In this document: one piece after another, positions 1 to 64,000 of the stretch
Layout of the letters: the number at the start of each line of letters is the position of its first letter
Position numbering within the stretch: position 1 is the stretch's first letter
Source: Squalus acanthias
Taxonomy: Eukaryota
Assembly (NCBI GenBank): GCA_030390025.1
Contig: JASTWF010000048.1
Coordinates: 1,798,001-1,862,000 of the forward strand
Direction: 5' to 3'
DNA length: 64,000 bases
The notes under the pieces: model-generated
The model's input: the letters and a program-made list of their open reading frames with translations, nothing else
Told to the model about the DNA's origin: nothing
The model's database searches: none
Translations under genes and position numbers: made by a program

Positions 1-71
1 CAGCCGCCAATGGTAGTTAACATCTGTATCACAAAATGCAAATTTGACTGGTGCAAGTTGTATGACTCGTC

Positions 72-690
72 GCTCATTTGGTAGCTCTCACGACTCTGAG
101 TCAGAGGGTCGTGGGTTCAGGGCCCGCTCTAGGCACATAAGAACAAATATCTAGGCTGACACTCCTAGTGAGGTATTCAGGGGGCGCTACACTGTCGGAG
201 GGGCAGTACTTCGGGAGCACTACACTGTCTGAGGGACTGTACTGATGGAGCGCTGCATTGTGGGAGGGGGCGTACTGAGAGAGTGCTGCACTGTTGGAGG
301 GGCGATTCAGAGGGAGCGCTGCACTGTCGTAGGGGCAGTACTGAGGGAGCTCCGCACTGTCGGATGGGTAGTACTGAGGGAGGGCTGCACTGTCGAAGGG
401 TCATTATTGAGCGAAAGCTGCACTGTGGGAGGGGCAGTACTGTGGGAGCGCTGCACTGTCGGAGGCGCAGTTTTGGTCAACATTTATCGCTCAACCAATA
501 TCACTAAAACACTTTATCTGGTCTTTATCACATTGCTGTTTGTTGCAGGTGCTGTGCAAAGATTGGTTGCCGTCTTTTAAACAATACAACGGTGAGCAGA
601 CTTCAAAGAACGTACTTCGATGGATGATATGTGTTTTGGGACGTCCTGAAGTCGTGAAAGACGCCGTAGAGATGCAAATTAGTTCGCTCC
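72..690 (+). mobile_element. tRNA-derived Deu-type SINE (SacSINE1-like) with internal 33-bp minisatellite
   Basis: A/B-box-like head (GGTAGC..GGGTTCAGGGCCC), unit CACTGTCGGAGGGGCAGTACTGAGGGAGCGCTG, L2-like tail. Paralog at ~51670-52285. Confidence 0.75.
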
Positions 691-756
691 TTTAGTGAGC
701 TGCCTAGAGGGTGCTGGATCACAGCTGGCGATAAGCGCACGTTGAGAGGGTGTCAA

Positions 757-795
757 GGTTTTTGTATCAGTCTGCGGCAAGTTTGTGTCGCTGTG
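757..795 (-). other. 23-RSS of V1
   Basis: Heptamer CACAGCG (789-795), 23-bp spacer, nonamer ACAAAAACC (757-765). Confidence 0.95.
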
Positions 796-1443
796 CAATA
801 CTCGCCGCACAGTAATAGGTCGCAGAGTCTGTCAGCTCGGAGCCTTCCAGCTGCAGACTGAACTGGTTCTTTGCTGGGTCGAGTTTCACTTTGAATCGAT
901 TCTCGAAAACCGGCTCGCAGCTGCCGAACTCATTGCACATCCACTGTATTGCCTCTCCCACTTGCCTCCACCAGTGCATGGCATGGCTGCCCATGCTCGC
1001 TCCCTCCAAACTGCACATGAAAGTGAACGGCTTTCCCTGGGGAATAGCGGCCGCGGCTGGAGACTGGATCACAGTGGGTGCAGCCCGAACCCCTAGATGA
1101 GGTTTAAACAAAGAAAATATGTTAGAATCATAGAAGGAAGATCGTAGCATAAAATCGTCGAATTTTACTGCACAGAAGCAGACCATTCCGCTACTTTGAA
1201 AGAGCTCTCCAGTTATTCCCACTTCCCTACAGCCCTTCAAATACCCCCACCAATCCCAGCACTCAAGTATTGATCCAATTCCATTTTGGAAGTTATCATT
1301 GAATTTGGTTCCACTCGTATATCAATGCAATTTCTTTCTTTTACTGTTTGCAATTGATATGTCAATGCATTTTACTTACAACAGATCAAATGTCCGAGTG
1401 ATAAGGTGACCACGATTAAGAACATTCTCGCTGAGAAACACAT
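796..1443 (-). CDS. V1: TCR V segment, Vdelta2-like, apparently functional (leader 1380-1443, V exon 796-1092)
   Basis: Leader MCFSARMFLIVVTLSLGHLIC with GTAAGT donor; phase-1 acceptor; open V exon ..FMCSLEGASMGSHAMHWWRQ..DSATYYCAASI; 23-RSS follows. Confidence 0.9.
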
Positions 1444-2909
1444 CGCCCTTCCCCGGGGATGACAGGCAGCGTTACTTAGCGACAACGTGTCAGCTGTACA
1501 ATTGCTCTCCTCAACGGTGCTGCCACCGGTGGTGATGAATTACGCGGGAGGACTGAGCAGCCAATCGTCTGCTTGGACCACCCATGTCAACAGTATGAAC
1601 AAATGAGAAGCATTTCCTTTGATAGCATTGTTTATGCCAAATTATGTACGTAGGTGGAAGATCGTAGCGTCAAATCGTAGCATCTTACAGCGCAGAAGGA
1701 GACCATTCGGCCCATCGTGCCTGTGCAGGGTCTTTGAAAGAGCTGGCCAATTAGGCCCACTCCCCTGCTCTTTCCGCATAGACCTGAAACATTTATGTTT
1801 GGTAATACTAGGGAAATGGGCTGGGTTATAAAATCACTCTTTCTTACTGACTTGTCTGGCCTTCTGTCTTTCCCACTTTGCATTCCTTCTTTCTTTCTTT
1901 CCTTCTTTGCTTCTTCTTTCTATTCGACGTTTCTTTATGTCTGCTTTTCATCGGTCTTTCCTTCGTTCTGTCCCTTCCATTCGTTCTGTTCCATGTAGTC
2001 AGCTCCGATCTCATACTATGATGGACTTGAAGTTACAGCACCCATACCTTGAACGCGAGAGGGACGTGCAGGAGAGTGTATAACATCACAGAGTGTTAGA
2101 ATAGTACAGTACAGGAGCAGGCCGTTCGTAATATTGACTATGCGCCGGTTCATACGAAGGGCACTCACCCGCTCTGGCCCCGTCATCCTGCAATGTTTTC
2201 TCCTACAAGGATTTATCCAACTCCCTTTCGAAAGCTAACATTGCATCTTTATCCACCACCCAATCAGGCTGTGTATTCTAAATACTGAGCACTCGTTGCA
2301 TAAAAAAGATATTCCTCATGTCGCCTCCTGTTGTTTGGCCAATCACCTTAGATCTGTGCCCTCTGGTTATCGACCCTTCAGCCTTTGGAAACAATTTCTC
2401 CCGATTTACAATTCTAAAATTCTTCATGATTTTAAACACCTCTGTCAAACCTCCTCTCGGCCTTCTCGGCTCCAAGGAGAACAACAACAGCGTGCCCAGG
2501 CTATCCACGTAACCGGATCCCTGGAACAATTCTTGTCAATCTCTTCTGTGCCCTCTCCAAAGTATTCACGTTTTTCCTAAAGTGTTGTGACCAGAATTGT
2601 GCATAATACTCCACATGGGGCCGAACTGTTGTTGTATATGGGGTTAGCCTAACTTGAAGGCTTTTGTACTATATGACTCTATTTATAAAGCCCAGGATAC
2701 CATCTGCTTTATTTTACTGCTTTGTTAACTGGCATGTTCTGTCCTGTCTCCTTCAAAGATTTGTCCCAAAACACCTCCAGGTCTATATCTCCTTGCACCC
2801 CCTTTAAATTTATATTATACAGCAGGTATTTAGCATGTAATATAACGGTAAAACATGCTTCACAATACTGACATTAGTATTAATGTCTTTGTAATATGAG
2901 CATCTATCC

Positions 2910-3575
2910 TAACATAAGCACGAACATCCGAATTAGGAGCAGAAAGGAGGCCACTCGTCCCCTCGAGCCTGCTTCGCCATTCAATAAGATCATTGCTGAT
3001 CCGATTACTCCACGTTCCCGCCTACCCCGATATCTTTTCACCCCCTTTCTTAACAAGAATTTATCTACCTCTGCCTTAAAAATATTTAAAGACTCTGCTT
3101 CCACCGCCCTCTGAGGAAGAGAATTCCAAAGACTCACGACCCTCTGTGAGAAAAACATTCTCCTCATCTCTGTCTTATGTGGGCGACCCCTTATTTTTAA
3201 ACATTGACGCCTAGTTCTAGCTTCTCCCACAAGAGGAAACATCCTCTCCACATCCACTCTGTCCAGACCCCTTAGGATCTTATATGTTTCAATCAAGTCA
3301 CCTCTTACTCTTCTAAACTCCAGCTGATAGAAGCCTAGCCTATTCAAACTTTCCTCATAAGACAACCCGCCCATTCCAAGTATTAGTCTTGTAAAACTTC
3401 TCTGAACTGCTTCCAGCGCATTTACACCCTTCCTTTAATAAGGAGACCAATACTGTACACAGTACTACAGATGTGGTCTCACCAATGCCCTGTATAACTG
3501 AAGCATAACCTCCCTACATTTGTATTCAATTACCCTCACAATAAACGATCACATTCTATTAGCTTTCCTAATTAC
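2910..3575 (-). mobile_element. CR1 LINE 3' fragment
   Basis: ORF LSYEESLNRLGFYQLEFRRVRGDLIETYKI..FFSQRVVSLWNSLP. Paralog at ~54510-55175. Confidence 0.85.
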
Positions 3576-3832
3576 TGTGTGCTAGAGGCTGACAGATTAG
3601 TTTCGGACTTTAGGATTCCACAGTCCAAAGCTGAGCAAGCAGGAGGCATCACGTATGACACTATAGAAGAATCAATGTATTTGTGTAAAGAATTATAGCC
3701 AAGTTTGGAGAGAGCATGTTTACATTTCAACTGTTAGTTACCTGGTCAAATTTGATATGTATAACATTTTGCTAAATTATCTCATCTTCCATTGAAAAAT
3801 CCAGTGAGACTGGAATAGACGTAGTGCAACCT

Positions 3833-3847
3833 CGCCATCTACTGGCG
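3833..3847 (-). promoter_or_regulatory. CTCF-like site
   Basis: CGCCAGTAGATGGCG; identical in the duplicate at 55408-55422. Confidence 0.65.
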
Positions 3848-5074
3848 TGATAGCATATGAAACTTAAGGATCACATGACAGTAATCCGAAATTGATAGGT
3901 TCAGGACAAGTAATCTGACCGCTTCGCATCTGTCTTTAAGGTGTATAAATCTGTATTGTTTTCATCAATACTTTGGTATTCTGTGCTGAGAACTCCCCTG
4001 GGTTGGTTAGGAGTTCGAAGTCCCCGATGGATAGCCTACTTGTAAGTGTATAGACGTCTAACCTTACTTCTACTTTCTGTCGCTATTAAGAAAAACAACA
4101 AGTTGTTTTATTACTGGCATGGGAACCGATATAATTACGATTAATCTGATTTTTTGATTTAACAGCGAAGCCCCTTTCCTCCAGGAAAGATGGATGATCG
4201 GGAGAAGCACTGCTGAATTTCCAGGATATTCCCCTCACTTTTCTGCAGTGGTGATACTTAAGACTAATATATCAGTTAGTAGGAATGCACACGGTGTCAT
4301 TTGCATTGAAATAGGCAGATAGAAAATGGAAGAATCAGCAGTAAATTATAAGTTTGTTGATTCTAATTCCGAGAGAAATGCGTTCCAATCCAGATGGACT
4401 CATGGGCGAATTCTCCTCTGTGTGTTGGTTGTAAGCTTCAGTGTGGATCGCTCTCAATCAATCAGAGAAAAATTCTCGAGCAATACATATTGAGTAGAAA
4501 GACTTGCCCAGTAATTTTGTTCGTTATTGTTCTTTCCTATCGACGCTTGCGCAGATAACTTTACAACAAAAACAATTTGCATTGATATAGCGCCTTTAAT
4601 GTAGAAAAACAACTTAACAGAACGAACTACAAAGTTATCACACAAAATTTGACAGCGAAACACATAAGGATAGATTAGAACAGATGACGTAAATCTTGGT
4701 CGAATAGGTAGGATTTAAGGAGTGTCTTAAAGTAGGAGAGAGAGGTAGAGAGGTTTAGGCATTCGATAATTTCATAGATTATGGCTTAGCCTGCTGAAGT
4801 CGCGGCCCCCAATGGTGGTGAGATGGAAATCGGGGATGCAAAAGAGGTCCGACTAGGAGGAGTGCAAAGATCTCGGGGGGTTGTAGAGCTGGAGAAGGTT
4901 ACACAGATAGGGAGGGGAGGGATTTGAACCCGAAGATGAGAATTTTATAGTGGAAGCGTTGCTCAACTGGGAGCCAAAATATATCGTCGAGCACCGAGGA
5001 GTTGGGGAGAATGGGACTTTATTCGATGGAGAATTTTCGCATAGATCCCCTGAATTCTTATAAAACTTTTTTAA

Positions 5075-5656
5075 AATTCGTTCATGGGATGCGGGCATCG
5101 CTGGCAAGGCCAGCATTTATTCTCCCTCCCTAATTGCCCTAGAGAAGGTGGTGGTGAGCCCCCTTCTTGAAACGCTGCAGTCCGTTTGGTGAAGGTGCTC
5201 CAACAGCGCTGTTAGGGAGGGAGTTCCAGGATTTTGACCCAGCGACGATGAAGGATCGGCGATATACTTCCAAGTCAGGATGGTGTGTGACTTGGAGGGG
5301 AACTTGGAGGTGGTGATGTTCATATGCGCCTGCTGCCCTTCTCTTTCTAGGTGGTAGAGGTCACGGGTTTGGGAGGTGCTGCCGAAGAAGCCTCGGCGAG
5401 TTGCTGCAGTGCATCTTGTAGATGGTACACACTGCAGCCACGGTACGCCGGTGGTGGAGTGAGTGAATGTTTAAGGTGGTGGATGGGGTGCCAATCAAGC
5501 GGGCTGCGTTGTCCTGGATGGTGTCGAGCTTTTGCAGTGTTGTTGGAGCTGCACTCATCCAGGCAAGTGGAGAATATTCCATCACCCTCCTCACTTGTGC
5601 CTTGTAGATGTTGGCATGGCTTTGGGGAGTCAGGAGGTGAGACAGTCGCCGCAGAA
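5075..5656 (-). mobile_element. 5'-truncated non-LTR retrotransposon (LINE RT C-terminus and 3' end)
   Basis: ORF tail LRRLSHLLTPQ..IYKAQVR..MEYSPLAW..HRRTVAAVCTIYK is a LINE ORF2 C-terminal motif. Paralog at ~56740-57322. Confidence 0.75.
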
Positions 5657-5663
5657 CACTGTG

Positions 5664-5963
5664 TGCATCCTCGCTGGCCCCACAGTAATATATTCCGCTC
5701 TTCTTGACCAGGGTGTTTTTCAGGGACAGCGTGAAAGTGTTATTTGTCGGGTCGTAATAGACTTCAGAACCTTTTTCTGTAGTTAGATGCAGGAAGTACA
5801 ACCGATCTTATCCAATCCAGGCGGTCACCGATCTGCACGTACCAGGACAACCAATAGTTACTCATGTTGCCCTGAACGATGCCGCAGTAGAACATGGCTT
5901 CCTCCCGTGGAACCGGGTTAGTGGCCGACGGGCTCTGGACGAAGAGTCGTTGGGAACGAACAT
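5664..5963 (-). pseudogene. V2: Vdelta2-like V pseudogene (+1 frameshift, RSS truncated by a LINE)
   Basis: VRSQRLFVQSP..FYCGIVQGNMSNYWLSWYVQ..RKRF* then shifted frame EVYYDPTNNTFTLSLK..GIYYCGASEDA. Heptamer CACAGTG 5657-5663, no nonamer at 23 bp. No convincing leader found. Confidence 0.85.
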
Positions 5964-6926
5964 CTGAAAGATTATTTAAAAAACAATAAGTCAGATCGAC
6001 CGTGAGAGGAAATTAGTGGGTGGTAGGGAGTATGAAATGGACTGAGGCAGGAGCAGAAGAGAGAGAAAAGGAAATAAACAAATTACTTTCCACAAATTGC
6101 GGTCCTAACTTCTCGCTTATATTTACTCTACAGGTTAAGTCTAATTATACGTCGGGTTTATTGAAGTGATAAAATTATAATGGCTTCAAACTAAAAAGTG
6201 AAAACGACAAATACAAGCTAGCTGAATCTGTACCTGAAAGATCTTCGAAGGAAACACATTAATGTAAGGTTCTAGAGAACGTAATAAAAACGTTGCTAAC
6301 GTGTGGAGAACGAGGTTCAGAACGAATTGTGAAATGAGGTAGAGAAAGGGAGAGAATGTGAGAGAGTGGGTGAGAGAGGCAGACAGAGAGGCAGGGAAAG
6401 ACAGACAGAGAGAGACAGAAAGACAGAGACAGCGAGAAACATAGATAGATACACAGAGAGAATGAGAGAGAGAGAGACGAGACACACAGAAATTGAGGTA
6501 GAAAAAATGAGAGCGACAGAGAGACAATGAGTGACTGAGAGAGACAGACTGAGTAAGACAGCTAGAGATTCAAGTTAGAGAGAAAGAGAGAAATACAGAC
6601 AGAGAGACAAGACAGAGATAAAGAGAGCGAGAGCGAGAGACAGATGGATGAAGAGAGAGACAGAGGCAAGAGAGAGTGAAAAGAAAGCAATTTTACAAAC
6701 AAAATGAAAGCTAATTTTTTTTTAAAATATCGATCAATTCTCAGCTACAATGGAAATATTGGACGTTAGACCAGAAGCGTTTTCTCCAGCTAAACATGTC
6801 CAGATTCACACAATGTTTACATGAAGTTAGCTTCTAGTGGATCAAATGGGAAACATCCCGATCTGCGCGGAATGAAAGAACGGTCGGGATGGACACTTCC
6901 GGCAGTTCGCGGGTGTCGCAGGGCCA

Positions 6927-6943
6927 CAGCGCCACCAACTGGC
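6927..6943 (-). promoter_or_regulatory. RSS-proximal CTCF-like site (V3); paralog at 58591-58607
   Basis: GCCAGTTGGTGGCGCTG, 38 bp 3' of the nonamer. Confidence 0.6.
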
Positions 6944-7020
6944 GGTTGAAACCATCGCATTCCTCTGGATCTGGTTCAGGGAGTTTTTGTCACAGAGAGG
7001 CTGTGTTTTCACACGCCTTG

Positions 7021-8104
7021 CATTACTGCACGCGCAGAAGTAGACGGCGGTGTCCGACTGAGAGGCTCCGGTGGGTTCCAGAGTAAACTCAGTGTCGCTG
7101 GGTCTCTGGGCTTTAAACGGTCTGGAGGTGTAATTTGAAACGTGGCCGGTTCCAGCTGAATGGAATAGAGCAACGAGTTCCCGGCTTGTCCCTTGTCGGT
7201 ACCAGTACATGTCACGATAATTAGTGTTCCTCAGGATACATCTCATTACGACCGATTTTCCTGAGCCAACCGACACAGTTCGCGGCGACTGGTCAACGAA
7301 CGAAGCAGTCACTTCTGTCAAATGGAGGATAGAGTCAAATTTGTTTTGATAGAATGATACAGTACAGAAGAAGGTCATTCTGTCTTTATTGCCTGTACCG
7401 GCTCTTTCAAAGAGCTATCCATTAGTCCCACGTCCACCAAGCTCTTTTCTCATAGTACAGCAATGTTTACCACCTTAAGTATGTACCCAATTCCCGTTTG
7501 AAACTTACTATTGAATCTTCTTCCACCACACTTTCAGGCTGTGCATTCCAGAAAACAACTCGCTTTGTAAAAGAAATTCTCCTCATCTCGCTTCTGGTTC
7601 TTTTGCCAGTCACCTTCAATCTGTGTCCTCTGGTTACCGACACTCCTGCCAGTGGAAACATTTTCTCCTTATTCACTCCATCGAAACCCCTCATAATTTT
7701 GAACACCTCTATTAAATCTCCCCTTAATCTTCTCTTCTCCATGGAGAAAAACTCCAGCTTCTCCAGTCTCTCCGTGTAACTGAAATCCCTCATTCCTGGT
7801 ACCATTCTAGTAAATCACCATTCATTGTCTCCAAGGCCTTGACATCCTTGGCCTTTGTGATGCCCAGAACTGAACACACTAGTTAATCTGATGCATAACC
7901 AGTGTTTTATAAAGGTTTCGCCTAAATTCATTGCTTCTGCACTCTATAAAAGTAGGAATCTATGTTTTCGTGGATTAACCCAGCCTAATCATAGAAACTA
8001 TTGTTAAATATGCATTGTGTTCCGACGTTCAAATTGGCGCATTGTTTAAACTTACCTGAAGTTAAAGCTATCGACAAGATTAAATATGACACTTCACGAA
8101 GCAT
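7021..8104 (-). CDS. TRBV: V3: TRBV segment (Trbv1-like); ORF intact but heptamer defective (leader 8056-8104, V exon 7021-7314)
   Basis: Leader MLREVSYLILSIALTS; V ..MRCILRNTNYRDMYWYRQ..DTAVYFCACS. RSS CAAGGCG (7014-7020)-23-ACAAAAACT (6982-6990). Confidence 0.85.
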
Positions 8105-9745: not shown

Positions 9746-10842
9746 TTCTTCTTTTGTGTTCACCCGAGAGGGCAGACGGTTTTAAGACGGCTCCTCTGAC
9801 CGTGCAGCACTCCTTCAGTACAGCCCTTCCGACAGTGCGACACTGCCTTAGTACAGGCACTGAAGTGTCATCCTGGATGATTGGCACACGCCGATGGCGT
9901 TTAACTTCAAGCCCCGGCCTTCTAACTCAGAGAGGAAAGTGCTACCCACTGAGCCAACGCTGATACTGTGCAACGTAAGCTGAGTCTTGCAATGTGTTGA
10001 AATCTGTTCTGCCTCAATTCCTTCATCCAATGGCGCCGATTAAAAAGGCCGCGAGCGTCGATACAGAAGGGCCGACCGTATAACAACTTTGTCAAGGTGC
10101 GCATGACACAAGTGCTGCCAACCTGTGGCGGAAATAAGCACTGACCATCTATCTCGAGCTGGCAGCTGGTGGCGAAACGTCAGCACTGAAGATCCATATC
10201 GAGCTGTCAATTTGCAATATAAACTAAACGGAGCCAAGTTAATGTCAAATCCTCAGAGAGTGCGCAGAAGAGATTCACTCGACTGCCACCAGGAATGCAG
10301 AAGTTAAGATAGGTGGAGAGAGTGCATAAGTTGAATTTGTTCTCCTTAGACCAGAGAACCATACGCGAAAATTTGACACAGGTGTTCAAAATCATATAAG
10401 CTTTGATTAGATTAAATAAGGAGAAACTGTTTGCAGTGGCAGAAGGGACGGTAAACAAAGGGCACAGGTTTAAAGTAATTGGCAAACGAATCAGAGGGGA
10501 AGATGAGGAGATGTTTTATTTATGCAGCGAGTTGATATAATCGTGAATACTTTGTCTGAAAGAGTGGTGAAAGCAGATTCAAAAATAACTTTAAAAAGTG
10601 TATTGAATATATACGTGACGAGGAAGATTTTGCAATTTGGCGAAAGAGCAGGGGGAAGTGGGACTAATTGGATAGCTCTTTCAAAGAGCCATTATAGGCA
10701 CGATGGTCCGAATGGCCTCCTTCCGTACTGGATCATTCTATGATGCTATGATCTGGTATGCAGAAAATTTGCACTGAACTTTCATCTACTGCTGCCACCA
10801 GGTGGCGGAAAATGAGCACTGAAATCCCATTCATCCGGTGCA

Positions 10843-10881
10843 GGTTTTTGTAGCTGGGGAGCCGCTTTCTCAAACGCTGTG
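10843..10881 (-). other. 23-RSS of V4
   Basis: CACAGCG (10875-10881)-23-ACAAAAACC (10843-10851). Confidence 0.95.
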
Positions 10882-11767
10882 CGATACTACAAGCACAGTA
10901 ATAGACAGCGGTGTGAGACGGAGAGGCGGTGCTCAGTTCCAAAGTAAACAGCGTATCGCTGCTTCTTTCGGCCTTAAAAGACTCGGACGTGTGTTTCCTA
11001 GCATCACCTTCGCCAGCAGAAGAGAAAAGAGCTTCTAATGCCCGGTCGGGTTGTTGTCTGTACCAATACATTTGGGGATAAGCAGTATTCGTCAGCGTGC
11101 ATCTGAGCGTCGTCGACTCTCCGGCTCCAATCGATATGCTAAAAGGCGACTGCTCCACGTACGAGGCGAGAATTCCTGTCGAAAGAAACATCGATTAGGT
11201 TGTTATTTCCATCAATAATTGAATAGAGAAGGGACTACATATAAATAAATAATTTGCATTTGTACAGTGTAAACTTCGCGATCCCAGAAACTAGCAAAGC
11301 GCTTTGCAACCAAGAAAGAACGTTTTGAAGTGTGGTCATTCATGTCATGTAGTAATCGCTGCAGCCAATTTTCACACAGCAAGATCCCACAATTAGTAAT
11401 ATGAAACTGGATATTTTTAGGTGCTGGTTGCGGAATAAATATTGGATAACATACGTCCATCTGAGCAGCTTTAATAAACATCCGAAAGCTGCCATCTCCG
11501 ACGGTGCAGCACACCCTCAGTACTGCCCCTCCGACAGTGCAGCACTCCCTTATTACTGGCACTGGGAGCGCCAGTCTTGCTTTTTTGCTCAAGTTTCTGT
11601 AATAAGTGAGAGTGAGACGCGAACCGCGACCTTCTGACTCGGTGACAAGACAGCAATCAACTGAATCTCGGCTGATATTATAATACATTATTCTATCAAG
11701 TAAGGTACATTGACTTACGTGGGATTAATGCAGCCATCAAGATTAGATAATGAGCTTCATGAAACAT
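10882..11767 (-). CDS. TRBV: V4: TRBV segment (Trbv1-like), apparently functional (leader 11719-11767, V exon 10882-11175)
   Basis: Leader MFHEAHYLILMAALIP; V ..LRCTLTNTAYPQMYWYRQ..HTAVYYCACSI. Confidence 0.9.
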
Positions 11768-14306: not shown

Positions 14307-14454
14307 CCAATTTCCTGATTTGAAATCTTTAGTTGTGTGTTAATCTGTTCATTTGCTGCCGATGACCCGCTGTATTTTCCAGCTCTGTCTCACACAGGAA
14401 ACGCCACCTGAGAAAGGTTTTTGCAGCGAGTCGCGCCGTGTTCTTACCGCTGTG

Positions 14455-14752
14455 GTACTATCGCTAACGCAGTAATACACAGCCGTGTCACTGGGCTGCT
14501 GTTCGGTCAAGTTGAGGTGGTAGGAATTGTCCATTCCCCTGACTGCAGACACTCGCCCTTTGAACCCTTCGGATATCTCGGGTGTGTTCGTCCGATACGC
14601 GTAAATCAGGAGCTCCCAGACTAGGTTTGGAGTCTGTCGATAGCAGTAGGTTCTGGGATGGTCTTTGTGTACAAAACATGTCCCCATCATAGAGCCCGAT
14701 TGGAAACCGGTGAGGAATTTGGGCCTTTGGATACCCGTTTCGGACTGAGCTC
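14455..14752 (-). pseudogene. V5: TCR V exon, open but conserved Trp replaced by Cys; no leader seen
   Basis: AQSETGIQRPKF..GTCF..RTYCYRQ..DTAVYYCVSDST. RSS CACAGCG (14448-14454)-23-GCAAAAACC (14416-14424). Confidence 0.75.
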
Positions 14753-15131
14753 CTGTAAAAGACACCTGTGTTAATGGACATAACCTCATTTTACAACCAC
14801 TTGATAGATAGCGGGCGAATGACGAATAGTTAGCGGAAGTGATAGGGTGCGACGAGGAAGAGAGAAGAAGATGGATAGAGAGAGGGAGCGAGGGAGAACG
14901 AAGAAGATGGATAGAGAGAGGGAGCGAGGGAGAACGAAGAAGAGGGATAGAGAGCGGGAGCGAGGGTGAGAGAAGGAGACGGAGCGAGAGAGAGGGAGAG
15001 GGTGAGAGACAGGAGAGAGGCAGAGAGAGGGGAAGCGATGGCGAGAGCGACGCAGATATAGAGATTAAGACAGGGAAAGAGAGAGACTTAGAGATAGAGA
15101 GGACAGAGGGAAAGACGGAGGGAGAGCTTCC

Positions 15132-15333
15132 NNNNNNNNNNNNNNNNNNNNNNNNNNNNNNNNNNNNNNNNNNNNNNNNNNNNNNNNNNNNNNNNNNNNN
15201 NNNNNNNNNNNNNNNNNNNNNNNNNNNNNNNNNNNNNNNNNNNNNNNNNNNNNNNNNNNNNNNNNNNNNNNNNNNNNNNNNNNNNNNNNNNNNNNNNNNN
15301 NNNNNNNNNNNNNNNNNNNNNNNNNNNNNNNNN
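15132..15333. other. Assembly gap (202 N)
   Basis: N run. Confidence 1.
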
Positions 15334-15639
15334 ATAAAATCACTCACTGGTTTAAACAATACAGGAATAACCCTGTTCTCTATATGTCCATCCCGACTGT
15401 ATTTAACACAATTTGTCTTCTTTATTTGTCACTGATCAGATACAGTCTATTTATTCCCACAACGCTGTTCTCTCATTAACTTTCTTTTTTTCTCTCTTTT
15501 CTTCATTTTTTTTTCTTTCCTTCTTTCTTTCACCTTTTCCTTCTTTCTTTCTTTCTGTAATTATTGAACAATTGTTTTGTAGGATTTTAATACATGCCTG
15601 CGCCAGACCTGAGGCCTCTATGGGAAACCGGCCTCAGAA

Positions 15640-50851: not shown

Positions 50852-52393
50852 TTTCAAATAAAAATGTTGGACTACAACCTGGTGTTGTGCGACTTCTCAC
50901 ATTTGTACACCCCAGTCCAACACCGGCATCTCCACATCATATAGATTTACAGCACAGAAGGTGGCAACCTGGCACATCTTGTGCGTGCCGGCCGACGAAG
51001 AGCTATCCACCCAAATGCCACTTTCCAGCACTTGGTCCACAGCCTTGTAGGTTACGGCACTTCAAGTGCATATCCAAGTACTTTTCAAATGTGACGATGG
51101 TTTCTGCATCTACCACCCTTTCAGGCAGTGAGTTGCCAGAACCACACCACCCTCTGGGTGAAAATAAATTCTCCTAAAATCCCCTCTAAAACCTGCTACC
51201 AATTACTTTAAATGTATGTCCCCTTGTTATCGGCCCTTCTGCTAATGGAAACAGGTCCTCCCTATCCACTCTATCTCGGCGCCTCATAATTTTATACACC
51301 TCAATTAGGACTCCCCTCAGCCTCCTCTTTCCCACAGAAAACAATCCCAGCCTTTCCAATGATTCCTCATAACTAAAATTCCCCAGCCACATCCTCGTAA
51401 ATATCTCTAGTGCAATCACATCCTTCCTGTAATGTGCTGACCAGCACTGCACGCAGGATCTAGCTACGGCCTAACTAGTGTTTTATAAAGTTCAGGTGGC
51501 CAAAAGTTTGATGAAAGAGGTACGTTATAAGGAGGAGAGATTGTGGGATTCGTTGAAAGCGAGAATTCCAGATCTCAGGGCTTAGCCAGCTGAAAGCACA
51601 GCCGCCAATGGTAGTTAACATCTTAATCACAAAATGCAAATTTGACTGGTGCAAGTTGTATGACTCGTCGCTCATTTGGTAGCTCTCACGACTCTGAGTC
51701 AGAGGGTCGTGGGTTCAGGGCCCGCTCTAGGCACATAAGAACAAATATCTAGGCTGACACTCCTAGTGAGGTATTGAGGGAGCGCTACACTGTCGGAGGG
51801 GCAGTACTTCCGGAGCACTGCACTGTCTGAGGGACTGTACAGATGGAGCGCTGCATTGTGGGAGGGGGCTTACTGAGAGAGTGCTGCACTGTTGGAGGGG
51901 CGATTCAGAGGGAGCGCTGCACTGTCGTAGGGGCAGTACTGAGGGAGCTCTGCACTGTCGGATGGGTAGTACTGAGGGAGGGCTGCACTGTCGGAGGGTC
52001 ATTATTGAGCGAAAGCTGCACTGTGGGAGGGGCAGTACTGTGGGAGCGCTGCACTGTCGGAGGCGCAGTATAGGTCAACATTTATCGCTCAACCAATATC
52101 ACTAAAACAGTTTATCTGGTCTTTATCACATTGCTGTTTGTTGCAGGTGCTGTGCAAAGATTGGTTGCCGTCTTTTAAACAATACAACGGTGAGCAGACT
52201 TCAAAGAACGTACTTCGATGGATGATAAGTGTTTTGGGACGTCCTGAAGTCGTGAAAGACGCCGTAGAGATGCAAATTAGTTCGCTCCAAAAGTGAGCTG
52301 CCCAGAGGGTGCTGGATCACAGCTGGCGATGAGCGCACGTTGAGAGGGTGTCAAGGTTTTTGTATCAGTCTGCGGCAGCTTTGTGTCGCTGTG

Positions 52394-53041
52394 CGATACT
52401 CGCCGCACAGTAATAGGTCGCAGAGTCTGTCAGCTCGGAGCCTTTCAGCTGCAGACTGAACTGGTTCTTTGCTAGGTCGAGTTTCACTTTGAATCGATTC
52501 TCGAAAACCGGCTCGCAGCTGCCGAACTCATTGCAAATCCACTGTATTGCCTCTCCCACTTGCCTCCACCAGTGCATGGCATGGCTGCCCATGCTCGCTC
52601 CCTCCAAACTGCACATGAAAGTGAACGGCTTTCCCTGGGGAATAGAGGCCACGGCTGGAGACTGGATCACAGTGGGTGCAGCCCGAACCCCTGGATGAGG
52701 TTTAAACAAAGAAAATAAGTTAGAATCATAGAAGGAAGATCGTAGCATAAAATCGTCGAATTTTACTGCACAGAAGCAGACCATTCCGCTACTTTGAAAG
52801 AGCTCTCCAGTTATTCCCACTTCCCTACAGCCCTTCAAATACCCACACCAATCCCAGCACTCAAGCATTGATCCAATTCCATTTTGGAAGTTATTATTCA
52901 ATCTATTTCCACTCGTATATCAATGCAATTTCTTTCTTTTACTGTTTGCAATTGATATGTCAATGCATAGTACTTACAACAGATCAAATGTCCGAGTGAT
53001 AAGGTGACCAAGATTAAGAACATTCTCGCTGAGAAACACAT
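52394..53041 (-). CDS. V1': paralog of V1, apparently functional (leader 52978-53041, V exon 52394-52690)
   Basis: Open V exon ending YYCAASI. RSS CACAGCG (52387-52393)-23-ACAAAAACC (52355-52363). Confidence 0.9.
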
Positions 53042-55737
53042 CGCCCTTCCCCGGGGATGACAGGCAGCTTTACTTAGCGACAACGTGTCAGCTGCACAAT
53101 TGCTCTCCTCAACGGTGCTGCCACCGGTGGTGATGAATTACGCGGGAGGACTGAGCAGCCAATCGTCTGCTTGGACCACCCATGTCAACAGTATGAACAA
53201 ATGAGAAGCATTTCCTTTGATAGCATTGTTTCTGCTAAATTATGTACGTAGGTGGAAGATCGTAGCGTCAAATCGTTGCATCTTACCGCGCAGAAGGAGA
53301 CCATTCGGCCCATCGTGCCTGTGCAGGGTCTTTGAAAGAGCTGTCCAATTAGTCCCACTCCCCTGCTCTTTCCGCATAGACCTGAAACAATTATGTTTGG
53401 TAATACTAGGGAAATGGGCTGGGTTATGAAATCAGTCTTTCTTACTGACTTGTTTTGCCTTCTTTTTTTCCCACTTTGCATTCCTTCTTTCTTTCTTTCC
53501 TTCTTTTTTTCCTTCTTTCTATTCGACGTTTCTTTCTGTCTTATATTCATCGGTCTTTCCTTCGTTCTGTCCCTTCCATTCTTTCTGTTGCTTGTAGTCA
53601 GCTCCGATCTCATACTATGATGGACTTGAAGTTACACCACCCTTTCCCACCATAACTTGAACGCGAGAGGGACGTGCAGGAGAGTGTATAACATCACAGA
53701 GTGTTAGAATAGCACAGTGCAGGAGAACGCCGTTCGGAATATTGAGTATGCGCCGGTTCATACGAAGGGCACTCCCTCGCTTTTTCCCCGTAACCCTGCA
53801 ATTTTTTCTACAACAAGCATTTATGCAACTCCCTTTCGAAAACGACCATTGCATCTTTATCCACCACCCAATCAGGTGGTGTATTCTAAATACTAAGCAC
53901 TCGTTGCGTAAAAAAGATATTCCTCATGTCGCCTCTGGTTGTTTGGCCAATCACCTTACATCTGGGCCCTCTGATTATCGACCCTTCAGACATTGGAAAC
54001 AATTTCTCCCGATTTACTCTTCGAAAATTCTTCATGATTTTAAACACCTCTGTCAAACCTGCTCTCGGCCTTCTCTGCTCTAAGGAGAACAACAACAGCG
54101 TGCACAGGCTATCCACGTAACCTTATCCCTAGAACCATTCTTGCCAATCTCTTCTGTGCCCTCTCCAAAGTATTCACGTCCTTCCTAAAGTGTTGTGCCG
54201 AGAATTGGGCATAATACTCTACATGGGGCCGAACTGTTGGTGTATATGGGATTAGCCTAACTTGATGGCTTTTGTACTGTATGACTCTATTTATAAAGCC
54301 ATCTGCTTTATTGACTGCTTTGTTAACTGTCATGTTGTGTCCTGTCTCTTTCAAAGATTTGTCCCAAAACACCTCCAGGTCTATATCTCCTTGCACCCCC
54401 TTTAAATTTATATTATACAGCAGGTATTTAGCATGTAATATAACGGTAAAACATGCTTCACAATACTGACATTAGTATTAATGTCTTTGTAATATGAGCA
54501 TCTATCCTAACATAAGCACGAACATCCGAATTAGGAGCAGAAGGAGGCCACTCGGCCCTTCGAGCCAGCTCCGCCATTCAATAAGATCATTGCTGATCCG
54601 ATTACTCCACATTCCCGCCTACCCCGATATCTTTTCACCCCCTTGCTTAACAAGAATCTATCGACCTCTGCCTTAAAAATATTTAAAGACTCTGCTTCCA
54701 CCGCCCTCTGAGGAAGAGAATTCCAAATACTCACGGCACTCTGTGAGAAGAAAATTCCCCTCATCTCTGTCTTATGTGGGCGACCCCTTATTTTGAAACA
54801 TTGACGCCTCGTTCTAGCTTCTCCCACAAGAGGAAACATCCACTCCACATCGACTCTGTCCAGACCCCGCAGGATCTTATATGTTTCAATCAAGTCACCT
54901 CTTACTCTTCTAAACTCCAGCTGATAGAAGCCTAGCCTATTCAAACTTTCCTCATAAGACAACCTGCCCATTACAAGTATTAGTCTAGTAAACCTTCTCT
55001 GAGCTGCGTCCAGCACATTTACATGCATCTTTAAATAAGGAGACCAATACTGTACACAGTACTCCAGATGTGGTCTCACCAATGCCCTGTATAACTGAAG
55101 CATAACCTCCCTACATTTGTATTCAATTATCCTCGCAATAAACGATAATATTCTATTAGCTTTCCTAATTACTGTGTTATAGAGGCTAACAGATAGATTA
55201 GATTTGGACTTTAGCATTCCACAGTCCAAAGCTAAGCAAGCAGGAGGCATCGCGCATGACACTGTATTTGTGTAAAGAATTATAGCCAAGTTTGGAGAGA
55301 GCATGTTTACATTTCAACTGTTAGTTACCTGGTCAAATTTGATATGTATAACATTTTGCTAAATTATTGAAAAATCCAGTGAGACTGGAATAGACGTAGT
55401 GCAACCTCGCCATCTACTGGCGTGATAGCATATGAAACTTAAGGATCACATGACAGTAATCCGAAATTGATAGGTTCAGGACAAGTAATCTGACCGCTTC
55501 GCATCTGTCTTTAAGGTGTATAAATTTGTATTGTTTTCATCAATACTTTGGTATTCTGTGCTGAGAACTCCCCTGGATTGGTTCGGAGTTCGTAGTCCCC
55601 GATGGATAGCCTACTTGTAAGTGTAAAGACGTCTAACCTTGCTTCTACTTTCTGTCGCTATTAATAAAAACAACAAGTTGTTTTATTACTGAGAAGTCGC
55701 ACAACACCAGGTTATAGTCCAACAGATTTATTTAATT

Positions 55738-55775
55738 TTACAAGCTTTCGGAGCTGTCGCTCCTTCGTCAGGTAA
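55738..55775 (-). ncRNA. Minimal type I hammerhead ribozyme within a 95-bp insert
   Basis: TTAC-CTGACGA-A-GGAGC(GACA)GCTCC-GAAA-GC-TT-GTAA. Confidence 0.85.
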
Positions 55776-57329
55776 TCTCCACATCATGTTTTATTACTGG
55801 CATGGGAACCGATATAAATAGGATTAATCTGCTTATTTAATTTAACAGCGAAGCCCCTTTCCTCGGGGAAGGATGGATGATCAGGAGAAGCACTGCTGAA
55901 TTTCCAGGATATTCCCCTCACTTTTTGCAGTGGTGATACTAAAGACTAATGTATCAATTAGTAGGAATGTACACGGTGCCATTTGCATTGAAATAGGCAG
56001 ATAGAAAATGGAAGAATCTGCTGTAAATTACAAGTTTGTTGATTCTAATTCCAAGAGAAGTGCGTGCGATTCAAGATGGACTCACGGGGCGGATTCTCCT
56101 CTGTATTTTGGTTGTAAACTTCAGTGTGGATGGCTATCAATCAATCACAGAACAACTCTCGAGTAATCTGCTTTGAGTAGACAGACTTGCTCAGTAATTT
56201 TAATGGTTATTGTTCTTTCCTATAGACGCTTGCGGAGATGACTTTACAACAAAAACAATTTGCATTTATATAGCGCCTTTAATGCAGAAAACCCAACTAA
56301 CACAACCAACTACACAGCTATCAGACAACATCTGACAGCGAAACACAAGGATAGATTAGGACAGGTTACGTAAATGTTGCTTGAATAGGTAGGATTTAAG
56401 GAGTATCTTAAAGGAGGAAAGAAAGGTCGAGAGGTTTAGTGATTAGAGAATTTCATAGATTATGGCTGAGCCAGATGAAGTCACGGCCGTCAATGGTGGA
56501 GAAATGGAAATCGGGGTCCGCGTAGGAGGAGTGCAGAGATCTCGGAGGGTTGTAGAGTTGGAGAAGGTTACACAGATAAGGAGGGCAGGGATTTGAACAC
56601 AAGGATGAGCATTTTAAAATGGTAGCGCTGCTCAACTGGGAGCCAAAGTATATCAGCGAGCACCGAGGAGTTGGGGAGAACGGGACTTTATTCGATGGAG
56701 AGTTTTCACACAGATCCCCGGAATTCTTATGACACATTTTTAAAATTCGTTCATGGGATGTGGGCATCGCTGGCAAGGCCAGCATTTATGGTCCCTTCCT
56801 GATTGCCCTTGAGAAGGTAGTGGTGTGCCCTCTTCTTGAAGCGCTGCAGTCTGTATGTTGAAGATGCTCCCACAGTGCTGTTAGGGAGGGAGTTCCAGGA
56901 TTTTGATCCAGTGGCGATGAAGGATCGGCGATCTACTTCTAAGTCAGGATGGTGCGTGACTTGGAGGGGAACTTGGAGGTGGTGGTGTTCCCATGCGCCT
57001 GCTGCCATTCTTCTAGATGGCAGACGTCGTGGGTTTGGGAGGTGCTGCCGAAGAAACCTCGGCGAGTTGGTGCATTGCATCTTGTAGATGGTACACACTG
57101 CAGCCACTGTGCGCCGGTGGTGGAGGGAGTGAATGATTAAGGTGGTGTAATGGGTGCCAATCAAGCGGGCTGCTTTGTCTTGGATGGTGTCGAGATTTTT
57201 CAGTGCTGTTGGTACTGCACTCATCCAGGCAAGTGGAGAGTGTTCCATCGCGCTCCTTACTTGTGCCTTGTAGATGGTGGAAAGACTTTGGGGAGTCAGG
57301 AGGTGAGACACTCGGCGCAGAACACTGTA

Positions 57330-57629
57330 CGCATCCTCGCTGGCCCCACAGTAATATATTCCGCTGTTCAAGACCAGGGTGTTTATCAGGTACAACGTGA
57401 AAGTGTTATTTTTAGGCTCGTAATAGACCTCAGTACCTTTTTCTGTAGTTAGATGCAGGAAGTACAACGGATCTGATCCAATCCAGGCGTTCCACGATCT
57501 GCACGTACCAGGCCAACCAATAGTTACTCATGTTGCCCTGCCCGATGCCGCAGTAGAACACGGCTTCCTCCCCTGGGACCTGGATGATGTCTGACGGGAT
57601 CTGGACGAGGAGTCGTTGGGAACGGACAT
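57330..57629 (-). pseudogene. V2': paralog of V2 pseudogene
   Basis: Same frameshift (RKRY*) and same LINE in the RSS; heptamer further decayed to TACAGTG (57323-57329). Confidence 0.85.
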
Positions 57630-58684
57630 CTGAATGATTATTTAAAAAACATTCAGGCAGATCGATCGTGACAGGACAATAGGGGGTGGCAGGCAGTATG
57701 AAATGGACTGCGGCAGGAGAAGAAGAGAGGGAAAAGGAAAGAAACAATTTACTTTCCTCAAGTTGCGGTGCTAACTTCTCGCTTATATTAACTCTACAGG
57801 TTAAGTCCAATTATACGTCGGGTTTATTGAACTGATAAAATTATAATGGCGTCAAACTAATAAGGGAAAACTAGAAATACATGCTAACTGAATCTGGATC
57901 TGAAAGATCTTAGAAGGAAACTAATTAATGTAAGATTCTAGAGACCGTAATATAACCGCTGCTACCGTGAGGTGATCGAGGTGCAGAACGAAATGTGAAA
58001 TGAGGTAGAGAAATGAAGAGAATGTGAGAGAGTGAGTGATAGAGGCAGAGAGAGAGGCAGGGAGAGACAGACAGATAGAGACAGAAAGACAGACACAGCG
58101 ATAAACATAGCTAGAAACACAGAGAGAGAATGAGAGAGAGAGTCGAGACACACAGAAATGGTGGTAGAAAAAAATGAGAGCGACAGAAAGACAATGAGTG
58201 AGTGGGAGAGACAGACTGAGCAAGACAGCTATAGAGACAAGATAGAGTGAAAGAGAGAAATACAGACAGAGTGGTAAGGCAGAGATAAGGAGAGCGAGAG
58301 CGAGAGAGAGATGGTTAGAGAGAGAAAGAAAGGCAAGAGAGAGAGAGAGAAAGCAATTTTACAAACAAAATGAAAGCTAACTATTTTTAAAATATCGATC
58401 AATTCTCGGCTACATTAGAAATATTGGAAGTTAGAGCAGAAGCGTTTTCTCCACCTAACAACGTCGAGATTCTCACAATGTTTACGTGAAGTTAGCATCT
58501 AGTGGATCAAATGGGAAACATCGCGATCTGCGCGGAATGAATGAACGGTCGGGAGGAAACTTCTGGGTGTTCGCGGGTGTCGAAGGGCCACAGCGCCACC
58601 ATCTGGCTGTTGAAACCATAGCATGCCGTTGGTTCTGGTTCAGGGAGTTTTTGTCACAGAGAGGCGGTGTTTTCACTCGCCGTG

Positions 58685-59767
58685 CATCACTGCACGCGCA
58701 GAAGTACACGGCGGTGTCGGACTGAGAGGCTCCGGTGAGTTCCAGAGTAAACTCGGTGTCGCTGTGTCTCAGGGCTTTAAACGCTCCGGAGGTGTAATTT
58801 GAAACGTGGTCGGTCCCAGCTGAATGGAATAGAGCAACGAGTTCCCGGCTTGTCCCTTGTCGGTACCAGTACATGTCGCGATAGTTACTGTTCCTCAGGA
58901 TACATCTCATTACGACCGATTTTCCTGAGCCAACGGACACAGTTTGCGGCGACTGGTCAACGAACGAAGCAGACACTTCTGTCAAATGGAGGAAAGAGTC
59001 AGATTTGTTTTGATAGAATGATACAGTACAGAAGAAGGCCATTTTATCCATATTGCCTGTACCGGCTCCTTCAAAGAGCTTTCCATTTGACCCACTTCCA
59101 ATAACTTCTTTCCTCATAGTACAGCAATGTTTACCATCTTAGGTATGTACCCAATTCCCGTTTGAAACTTACTATTGAATCTCCTACCACCACACTTTCA
59201 GGCTGTGCATTCCAAAAAACAACTCGCTGTGCAAAAGAAATTCTCCTCATCTCCCGACTGGTTCTTTTGCCAGACACCTATAATCTGTGTCCTCTGGTTA
59301 CCGACACTCCTGCCAGTGGAAACATTATCTCCTTATTTACTCCATAGAAAGCCCTCATAATTTTGAACACCTCTATTAAATCTCCCCTTAATCTTCTCTT
59401 CTCCAAGGAGAAAAAATCCAGCTTCTCCAGTCTCTCCGTGTAACTGAACTCTCTCATTCCTGGTACCATTCCAGTAAATCTGATTTCATTGCCTCCAAGG
59501 CCTTGACATCCTTGGCCTGTGTGATGCCCAGAACTGAACACACTAGTTGATCTGATGCATCACCAGTGTTTTATAAAGGTTTAGCATAACTTCATTGCTT
59601 CTGTACTCTATAAAAGTAGGAATTATAGTTTCGTGGATTAAACCAGCCTAATCATAGAAACTATTGTTAAATATGCATTGTGTTCCGACGTTCTGATTGG
59701 CGCATTGTTTAAACTTACCTGAAATTAAAGCAAGCGACAAAATTAAATATGGCACTTCAGGAAACAT
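58685..59767 (-). CDS. TRBV: V3': paralog of V3, apparently functional (leader 59719-59767, V exon 58685-58978)
   Basis: Leader MFPEVPYLILSLALIS; V ends YFCACSD. RSS CACGGCG (58678-58684)-23-ACAAAAACT (58646-58654). Confidence 0.88.
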
Positions 59768-61680: not shown

Positions 61681-62720
61681 TTCTTTTTTGTTCACCCGAG
61701 AGGGCAGATGATTTTAAGATGGCTCCTCCGACCGTGCAACACTCCTTCAGTACTGCCCGTCCAACAGTGCGACACTGCATTAGTACAAGCACTGAAGTGT
61801 CATCCTGAATGATTGGCTCAAGCCGATGGCGTTTAACTTCAAGCCACGACCTTCTAACTCAGGGAGGAAAGTGCTACCCTCTGAGCCAACGCTGATACTG
61901 TGCAACGTGAGCTGAGTCTTGCTCTGTATTGAAACCTGTTCTGCCTCAATCCCTCCAGCCAATGACGACGATTAAAAAGGCCGCGAGCGTCCATACAGAA
62001 GGGCCGACCGTGTAACAAATTTGTCAAGTTGCGCATGACACAAGTGCTGCCAACTAGTGGCGTAAATAAGCACTGAACATCTATCTCGAGCTGGCACCTG
62101 CTGGCGAAACTTCAGCACTGAAGTTCCATATCGAGCTGTCAATTTGCAATTTAATCTGAATGGAGCAAAGTTAATGTCAAGTCCTCAGAGAGGGCGCAGA
62201 AGAGATTCACTCGACTGCCACCAGGAATGCAGAGATTAAGTTACGTGGAGAGAGTGGATAAGTTGAGTTTGTTCTCCATAGAGCAGAGAACCATGCGCGA
62301 AAATTTGACAGAGGTGTTCAAAATCATATATGCTTTGATTAGATTAAATCAGGAGAAACTGTTTGCAGTGGCAGAAGGGACGGTAAACAAAGGGCACAGA
62401 TTGAAAGTAATTGGCAAACGAATCAGAGGGGAAGATGAGGAGATGTTTTATTTATGCAGCGAGTTGTTATTATCGTGAATACATTGTCTGAAAGAGCGGT
62501 GGAAGCAGATTCAAAAATAACTTCCCAAAGCGTATTGAATATATACGTAAAGGGGAAGAATTTGCTATATGGGGAAAGAGCAGGGGGGAGTAGTAGTAAT
62601 TGGATAGCTCTTTCAAAGAGCCGGTACAGTCACGGTGGTCCGAATGGCCTCCTTCCGTACTGGATCATTCTGTGGTGCGATGATCTGGTCGGCAGAAACT
62701 TTGCACTGAACTTTCATCTA

Positions 62721-62738
62721 GTGCTGCCACCTGGTGGC
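62721..62738 (-). promoter_or_regulatory. RSS-proximal CTCF-like site (V4'); paralog at 10791-10806
   Basis: GCCACCAGGTGGCAGCAC, 36 bp 3' of the nonamer. Confidence 0.7.
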
Positions 62739-62813
62739 AGAAAGTGATCACTGAACTCCCATTCATCCGCTGCAGGTTTTTGTAGCTGGGGAGCCGCTTT
62801 CTCAAACGCTGTG

Positions 62814-63821
62814 CGATACTACAGCACAGTAATAGACAGCGGTGTGAGACGGAGAGGCGGTGCTCAGTTCCAAAGTAAACAGCGTATTGCTGATTCTTTT
62901 GGCCGTAACAGACTCGGACGTGTATTTCCTAGTATCACCTTCGCCAGCAGAAGAGAAAAGAGCTTCTAATGGCCGGTCGGGTTGTTGTCTGTACCAGAAC
63001 ATGGTATAGCCAGTATTCGTCAACGTGCATCTGAGTGTGGTCGACTCTCCTGCTCCAATCGATAGGATAGTTGGCGACTGCTCCACGTACGAGGCGAGTA
63101 TTCCTGTCGAAAGGAACATCGATTAGATTCTTATTCCCATCAATAATTGAATAGGCAGGGATTACATCTAAAAAATAACTTGCATTTCTACAGTCCGTTT
63201 CGCGACCCCAGGACGTCCCAAAGCGCTTCAAACCAAGGAAGAACTTTTAGAAGTGTGGTCACTGTTGTAATGTAGTCATCGCTGTCGCCAAATTTCCCAC
63301 AGCAAGATCCCACACTGAGCAAGATGAAAACTTGGTGTTTATAGGTGCTCGATGCGGGATAGATATTTGATAATCTACGTCCACCTGAGAGGGCAGCTTT
63401 AATTAATTTCCGAAAGATGCCACCTGCGACGGTGCAGCACACCCTCAGTACTGCCCATCCGACACTCCAGCGCTCCCACAGTACTGCCCCCTACGATATT
63501 GCAGCGCTCCCTCAGTACTGCCCGCTCCGACATTGCAGCGCTCTCTCAGTACTGCCACTCCGATGGTGCAGCGCTCCCTCAGTACTGTCCAGTCCGACAG
63601 TGCAGAACTCCCTTATTACTGGCACTGGTAGCGTCAGCCTTGATTTTGTGCTCAAGTTTCTGTAATGAGACGCGATCCCGCGACCTTCTGACTCGGTAAC
63701 AAGAAGGCAATCATCTGAACTACAGCTGACATTATAGTACATTATTCGATAAAGTTTGTTACTTTGACTTACGTGGGATCAATGAAGCCATCAAGATTAG
63801 ATAATGAGTTTTAAGAAACAT
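62814..63821 (-). CDS. TRBV: V4': paralog of V4 (leader 63773-63821, V exon 62814-63103)
   Basis: Leader MFLKTHYLILMASLIP; CDR1 one codon shorter than V4; 1-nt deletion after YYCA. RSS CACAGCG (62807-62813)-23-ACAAAAACC (62775-62783). Confidence 0.88.
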
Positions 63822-63938
63822 GATTTATTCATTCGACGCTGGCTCGCTGTGTGAACGAGTGCACCTCTATACCACGTCTAAAAGCCGTTTCTCTGTTGCA
63901 TCTGTTTAAGTAAGGAGCATCCGGTTATTATTGTTATA

Positions 63939-63953
63939 TGACGTCACTTCCTG
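63939..63953 (-). promoter_or_regulatory. ETS-CRE decamer, V4' promoter
   Basis: Minus strand CAGGAAGTGACGTCA. The V4 copy reads CAGGAAATGACGTG (11887-11900). Confidence 0.7.
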
Positions 63954-64000
63954 CGAAACCCACCCATCATCCCATTACTTCGGTCGTTTAGCATCTTCAT

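What the first reader, a model, noticed from the sequence alone, without database searches (positions are those of the whole stretch)
1..64000. Co-oriented CTCF-like sites, several 36-38 bp from V RSSs
Seen: matches to CCASYAGRKGGCR on the minus strand at 3833-3847/55408-55422, 6927-6943/58591-58607, 62721-62738, 62044-62062, 62090-62106, 26225-26239, 28884-28900, 32708-32723 and 41103-41118. Several have 1-2 mismatches. The paralog at 10791-10806 is near-palindromic. The three sites near V4' have TTCAGTG just upstream, resembling the CTCF upstream module. All point toward the presumed D-J-C. The V3 and V4 sites sit 36-38 bp past the nonamer. Known: RSS-proximal CBEs of mouse proximal VH genes stall cohesin-driven RAG scanning. 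Inference: CBE-guided loop extrusion may already have organised TCR loci in cartilaginous fish.
Basis: partly seen in the sequence, partly recalled or inferred. Interest (0 to 1): 0.72.

Follow-up and report, generated by a model that had tools for sequence, protein, structure and literature searches.

The report
CTCF-type sites in shark TCR-beta array
This stretch of a shark T-cell-receptor beta locus carries strong DNA motifs for the genome-folding protein CTCF, mostly facing the same way as the variable gene pieces and, in one old gene family, sitting 37-39 bases behind the cutting signal, so they likely help fold the locus for gene assembly as in mice, though binding and function are untested.

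Summary
Real motifs, narrower than claimed. The window holds 15 shark TCR-beta V segments, all on the minus strand; 1-12 kb is duplicated at 51.6-64 kb. Strong CTCF matrix hits number 10 minus and 2 plus, against about 0.5 per strand in shuffles. The upstream CTCF module lies at the right spacing before 5 of 18 minus-strand cores and 0 of 10 plus-strand cores. RSS-proximal sites occur in only 4 of 15 segments, all one family (V3/V4), at 37 or 39 bp, and were inherited from one ancestor. Behind V4 and V4' lie four 45-bp CTCF units split by a repeat. The site is kept in related organisms and is inferred in sawshark and whale shark orthologues. Against: independent sites give 5:1 (p = 0.11); cores diverge between duplicates like the flanks; D-J-C is not in the window; binding is untested. 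Closest known: co-oriented V-region CTCF sites of mouse Tcrb and Igh. The scan noted the same theme in other windows of this genome. I found no paper on it in sharks.

The parts
62722..62755 (-). V4' unit 1: upstream module, 12-nt linker, CTCF core starting 37 nt past the nonamer; score 23.2, best site in the window
   Evidence: kept in organisms A, C, D, E
62680..62710 (-). V4' unit 2: upstream module 45 nt after that of unit 1, core decayed next to the repeat insertion
   Evidence: single contigs of organisms A and D show a better core in this register (loose ends)
62267..62676 (.). high-copy interspersed repeat splitting the array (LINE-type 3' end by recall)
   Evidence: depth up to 1.3 million against 30-300 on the flanks
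62089..62122 (-). V4' unit 3: upstream module, 12-nt linker, core; score 13.5
62045..62077 (-). V4' unit 4: upstream module, 11-nt linker, core; score 14.3
10790..10823 (-). V4 unit 1, 37 nt past the nonamer; near-palindromic, core scores 17.6 minus and 22.2 plus; upstream module only on the minus side
10113..10190 (-). V4 units 3 and 4 (scores 6.8 and 10.2), weaker copies of the V4' units
58591..58609 (-). V3' RSS-proximal CTCF-type core, 39 nt past the nonamer; score 15.7; upstream hexamer with 2 mismatches
6927..6945 (-). V3 RSS-proximal core, 39 nt past the nonamer; score 17.3; the V3 heptamer reads CAAGGCG
3830..3848 (-). intergenic core between V2 and V1, score 14.9, no upstream module
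55405..55423 (-). identical duplicate of the 3830 site
41103..41121 (-). intergenic core 1.8 kb past the V11 RSS, score 16.8
28884..28920 (-). intergenic core 1.6 kb past the V8 RSS, score 12.2, upstream hexamer with 1 mismatch at 12 nt
32708..32726 (-). weak core 218 nt past the V9 RSS, score 8.8, chance level
26224..26242 (-). weak match, score 6.7, chance level
62775..63107 (-). V4' exon and 23-RSS (CACAGCG / ACAAAAACC)
58646..58988 (-). V3' exon and 23-RSS (heptamer CACGGCG)
10843..11179 (-). V4 exon and 23-RSS; 72% identical to the V of a sawshark TCR beta chain
6982..7324 (-). V3 exon and 23-RSS with a CAA heptamer start
757..1099 (-). V1 exon and 23-RSS, no proximal site
5626..5990 (-). 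V2 pseudogene, frameshifted, nonamer missing behind the heptamer (start approximate)
14416..43275 (-). V5-V11 (exon ends near 14469, 19554, 25255, 30552, 32994, 38846, 42985), none with a site within 100 nt of the nonamer; V10 has stops
52355..57636 (-). V1' (52355-52697) and V2' pseudogene (about 57292-57636), duplicates of V1 and V2

Best explanation
These are CTCF-type motifs lined up with the direction of V transcription in a shark TCR-beta V array, and they likely bind CTCF in thymocytes and likely act as one-way anchors for cohesin loops that would bring V segments near the D-J-C end, as in mouse Tcrb. Shown: the motifs, their strand, the upstream module at 11-12 nt, the 37-39 nt distance in the V3/V4 family, the 45-bp tandem array, and retention of the V4-type site in other organisms. 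Inferred: binding, a convergent partner at D-J-C, the side on which D-J-C lies, and any effect on V choice. The RSS-proximal site arose once, in the ancestor of the V3/V4 family, and spread with V duplication; the V4 branch amplified it into a tandem array that a repeat later split.
For: Minus-strand excess at p<1e-5: 10 vs 0.47 in 150 shuffles, and 5 vs 0.45 without the duplicate; 0 of 500 permuted matrices match it. Upstream hexamer with at most 1 mismatch at 11 or 12 nt: 5 of 18 minus cores, 0 of 10 plus cores, background 1.6%; collapsed to 11 origins 2 of 11 (p = 0.013), and 5 of 11 at 2 mismatches (p = 0.002); for minus-strand cores, spacings 5-10 and 13-24 gave none and spacing 4 gave 2. 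Proximal sites in 2 of 11 non-duplicated V segments; 0 of 300 permuted matrices gave 2. Contigs of organisms A, C, D and one of E cover unit 1 with no length change listed and no change in the 3' nine core bases. Read-through peptides of the only two V3/V4-family orthologues peak at 37 nt (sawshark) and 38 nt (whale shark); 1 of 79 other tails peaks at 36-40 nt with a score of 6 or more (p = 0.0009). Mouse Tcrb has 18 bound V-region sites, all facing D-J, 2 near an RSS (PMC5859386, PMC10772921; passages). Skate has a CTCF orientation code (PMC10115646; passages).
Against: Independent strong sites give 5:1, p = 0.11, and at p<1e-4 without the duplicate 12:8, p = 0.25; up to 2 consensus mismatches the strands are equal, 22:20. 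Cores differ between the duplicates at 6 of 70 bases, other non-coding DNA at 216 of 2567: no sign of extra constraint (p = 0.46). The V4 copy scores better backwards (22.2 vs 17.6), and a minority of contigs in related organisms carry the same kind of change. 11 of 15 V segments, including V1, V7, V8 and V11 with near-consensus RSSs, have no proximal site, while V3 keeps its site with a CAA heptamer. No D, J or C segment was identified in the window. The matrix is recalled.
Confidence: 0.5

Rival explanations
1. The sites bind CTCF but serve as local insulators or barriers between V transcription units and the many repeats, without steering V choice.
For: Sites with the upstream module, and 2-4 tandem copies, are typical of enhancer-blocking and barrier elements (PMC12885311, passages); the V4 array has both traits. 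Six of the 12 listed sites lie 0.7-2.7 kb and the rest 2.8-3.7 kb ahead of the next V exon, as do the 'upstream' class of mouse Igh sites (PMC6746451, section 7).
Against: A barrier does not need a distance to the nonamer held at 37-39 nt while the V3 and V4 spacers diverge, nor one strand.
Confidence: 0.2
2. Igh-type scanning stall: the RSS-proximal site halts loop extrusion so that RAG bound at D-J captures the adjacent RSS.
For: Fixed distance past the nonamer, same strand as the V, restricted to one V clade: as for mouse (17-19 bp) and human (19 or 48 bp) RSS-associated Igh sites (PMC6746451, section 7). The VH81X result (Jain 2018) is recalled, not read.
Against: At mouse Tcrb an inverted RSS still joins, which rules out scanning as the only mode (PMC10772921, passages). 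The distance 37-39 matches neither mammalian class. Mouse sites of this class are D-proximal; an unchecked scan note places TCR-beta V genes 1.49 Mb before this window, so this window may be distal.
Confidence: 0.13
3. Relic hitch-hikers: a few ancestral CTCF-type sites were copied along with V duplications and now drift, at least in this pair of copies.
For: Four proximal sites share one origin (flank alignment score 49 vs at most 29 in 100 shuffles; tree). Cores diverge between duplicates at the background rate. The left copy is weaker at all three V4 units (17.6/6.8/10.2 vs 23.2/13.5/14.3) and unit 2 is decayed in both.
Against: Retention in register in sawshark, whale shark and organisms A, C, D, E; neutral sites would not be expected to last across shark orders (divergence depth recalled, not measured).
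Confidence: 0.12
4. The functional element is an E-box for E2A/HEB-type factors that overlaps the motif, not a CTCF site.
For: 6 of 13 sites checked hold CANNTG, including all four RSS-proximal ones; in V3 and V3' the base that varies lies in the free middle of the E-box, and both copies break a conserved A of the CTCF core.
Against: The CTCF consensus itself often contains CAGRTG; the E-box lies in a different register in V3, V4 and V4'; it does not explain the upstream module at 11-12 nt or the 7 sites without an E-box.
Confidence: 0.05

Closest known systems
V-region CTCF-binding elements of mouse Tcrb (PMC5859386, PMC10772921, 10.1101/2024.10.13.618029; passages read)
   Same: Same locus type; sparse sites among V segments, one orientation; a few near an RSS and several V segments with none (mouse: 18 bound sites for 33 V genes, 2 near an RSS).
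   Different: Mouse sites are shown bound and convergent with three sites at the D-J end; here neither is shown. No tandem array at an RSS appeared in the passages I read on mouse Tcrb.
RSS-associated CTCF sites of mouse and human IGH V genes (PMC6746451; passages, section 7, 3 of 4 supplement files searched)
   Same: Fixed distance past the nonamer, one orientation relative to V transcription, presence follows the V family tree; human VH also has clusters of several sites within 100 bp.
   Different: Distance 37-39 nt, not 17-19 (mouse) or 19/48 (human); a TCR-beta locus; cores here are not more conserved than flanks between the two duplicates; species analysed there were mouse, human, chimpanzee and rabbit.
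Bipartite CTCF insulator sites with the upstream (zinc finger 9-11) module, e.g. the human IL3 insulator (PMC12885311; passages)
   Same: Hexamer like TGCAGT 11 nt before the core (counted from that paper's oligo) or 12 nt (recalled); tandem copies.
   Different: The shark hexamer is mostly TTCAGT; insulator activity is untested.
Convergent CTCF code of the little skate and lamprey genomes (PMC10115646; 10.64898/2026.10.19.759930; passages)
   Same: Shows that oriented CTCF motifs and loop extrusion signatures exist in cartilaginous fish and earlier.
   Different: Concerns domain borders and developmental loci; the preprint has 0 occurrences of 'antigen receptor'.

Membership tests
TCR beta V array | V exons closest to TCR beta chains, each with a 23-bp-spacer RSS | tested here: met
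   V4 72% identical to sawshark TCR beta V; V3/V4 group with nurse shark and sawfish TCR beta chains; 13 of 15 segments have a 23-spacer RSS reading, V2 and V2' lack the nonamer. V1 and V2 are not assigned.
CTCF-binding element | core motif far above chance | tested here: met
   10 minus-strand hits at p<1e-5 vs 0.47; 11 vs 1.59 by consensus. Not met for 26225 and 32708.
CTCF-binding element | upstream module at 11-12 nt (present in a minority of sites) | tested here: met
   5 of 18 minus cores vs 1.6% background; 2 of 11 after collapsing to origins
CTCF-binding element | CTCF occupancy in vitro or in vivo | not testable with these tools
   no library type is on record for the 16 runs listed
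co-oriented V-region CBEs (mouse Tcrb, Igh) | one orientation along the V array | tested here: inconclusive
   10:2 overall (p = 0.019), 5:1 for independent origins (p = 0.11), 12:8 for weak hits without the duplicate
co-oriented V-region CBEs (mouse Tcrb, Igh) | convergent partner sites at D-J-C | not testable with these tools
   no D-J-C identified in the window; no genome held
RSS-associated CBEs of IGH | distance 17-19 bp (mouse) or 19/48 bp (human) from the nonamer | tested here: not met
   37 and 39 nt
RSS-associated CBEs of IGH | distance kept across family members and species | tested here: met
   37, 37, 39, 39 in the window; 37 and 38 inferred from sawshark and whale shark peptides; no length change listed in four laid runs
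RSS-associated CBEs of IGH | site more conserved than the spacer | tested here: inconclusive
   not so between duplicates, 6 of 70 vs 216 of 2567; across organisms the 12-nt linker varies at 7 positions (3 in most contigs), the 15-nt core at 5 (none in most contigs of A, C or D), the upstream hexamer at 1 of 6
RSS-associated CBEs of IGH | found on functional, D-proximal V genes and predicts usage | not testable with these tools
   no repertoire data; V3 keeps the site with a CAA heptamer

The most novel reading that the evidence does not exclude
An RSS-coupled CTCF site, with its upstream module, has been held 37-39 bp behind the nonamer of one ancient TCR-beta V family since before sawsharks and whale sharks parted, and in the V4 branch grew into a tandem multi-site barrier; it selects these V segments by stopping cohesin, so CTCF-guided V(D)J assembly dates from the first jawed vertebrates and is not a mammalian Igh refinement.
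Probability: 0.3. Interest if true: 0.7.

Novelty: new member of a known kind. Interest (0 to 1): 0.42.

Why it matters
How V segments spread over megabases reach the recombination centre has been worked out in mice; my searches found no such work in cartilaginous fish. If these shark sites are bound and face partner sites at D-J-C, the folding logic is as old as V(D)J recombination in living vertebrates. The window also offers a natural test: paralogues with and without the site, and a strong (V4') and a weakened, near-palindromic (V4) copy with the same RSS. The result would extend a known mechanism, not reveal a new one, and oriented CTCF use is already reported for skate.

Tried and rejected
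No whole genome is held, so D-J-C could not be located; scan notes near the window were empty and genome-wide look-ups gave no D-J-C position. No RNA holder listed; run X6 covered V4' exon pieces but not the sites, which says nothing on expression. A protein search with V8 alone at near length found nothing. Rfam: 0 matches in the window. That the sites are cargo of a mobile element was considered and set aside: none lies in a within-window repeat other than the large duplication, and the V4' units are at low depth while the insert between them is at very high depth; only the V4' array was tested this way. Common origin of the V8, V9 and V11 intergenic sites: V9 vs V11 scored 34 against a shuffle maximum of 37, not accepted. 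The identical stretch around 3830/55405 looked like constraint, but its longest run (160 nt) is matched by another of 191 nt without a site. The hit in the V7 RSS spacer (25220, score 13.2) is likely chance: no upstream module, and related V7-type peptides score at most 3. A best-of-tail score alone is not evidence: 12 of 81 read-through tails reach 6.9 somewhere; only the position counts. The newt V4-clade tail peaks at 73 nt, not 37-39; the alligator and turtle peptides stop before the RSS. Literature searches listed no paper on CTCF sites in shark antigen-receptor loci; PMC13433984 and PMC12227049 have 0 occurrences of CTCF. The library lacks most subscription papers, and one supplement file of PMC6746451 could not be searched.
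Full report
What the window is. A search with V exons from the window finds 15 V segments, all on the minus strand. Thirteen have a 23-spacer RSS reading; V2 and V2' keep a heptamer but lack the nonamer. V2, V2' and V10 are broken. Bases 1-11.9 kb are duplicated at 51.6-64 kb at 85-95% identity, giving V1-V4 and V1'-V4'. V4 is 72% identical to the V of a protein named T cell receptor beta chain in the sawshark Pristiophorus japonicus, V8 is 63-70% identical to horn shark proteins, and V3/V4 group with nurse shark and sawfish TCR beta chains. So this is a shark TCR-beta V array. I identified no D, J or C segment in it, and no genome is held.

Noticed in passing
window 5100-5660 and 56800-57325: In V2 and V2' the RSS breaks off a few bases after the heptamer into an interspersed-repeat-like sequence (LINE 3' end by recall); the insertion is older than the duplication.
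   Followed up: partly
window 757-1099 and 52355-52697: V1/V1' are far from the other V segments (about 24-26 of 89 residues shared with V3/V4) and carry two extra cysteines; the 60 best solved-structure hits of V1' are antibody fragments, none named TCR beta, though multi-domain constructs inflate that list.
   Followed up: partly
window 30040-30110: A decayed V 3' end with an RSS-like tail lies about 400 nt past the V8 RSS (seen).
   Followed up: no
window 25220-25238: A CTCF-like match (13.2) overlaps the V7 heptamer and spacer; not kept in related peptides.
   Followed up: yes
window 31356-31628: The region ahead of V8 matches horn shark predicted-protein stretches at 36-41%, probably the leader exon and conserved promoter flank.
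   Followed up: no
protein P0012: The sawshark gene model joins ALDH3B1 exons to a V4-type exon, which suggests that ALDH3B1 lies upstream of such a V on the same strand in that species.
   Followed up: no
window 1-4116 vs 51599-55691 and 4104-11900 vs 55787-64000: The duplicate is 94.5% identical around V1 but 85-87% around V2-V4, a mosaic that may reflect gene conversion or two events.
   Followed up: partly
window 179-471, 8301-9433, 35819-36860, 41987-42594, 51775-52070, 59961-61398, 63418-63605: A 33-bp minisatellite recurs at seven places in both orientations; the copies at 399 and 51997 hold a perfect RSS heptamer with a poor nonamer at 13 nt.
   Followed up: no
window 62814-62826: V4' lacks two bases after the final cysteine codon relative to V4, in the part trimmed at joining, and one codon in the exon.
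   Followed up: no
protein P0006: A lizard IgH-V read-through peptide peaks 16 nt past the inferred nonamer (8.4 bits), close to the mouse RSS-associated distance; may be chance.
   Followed up: no
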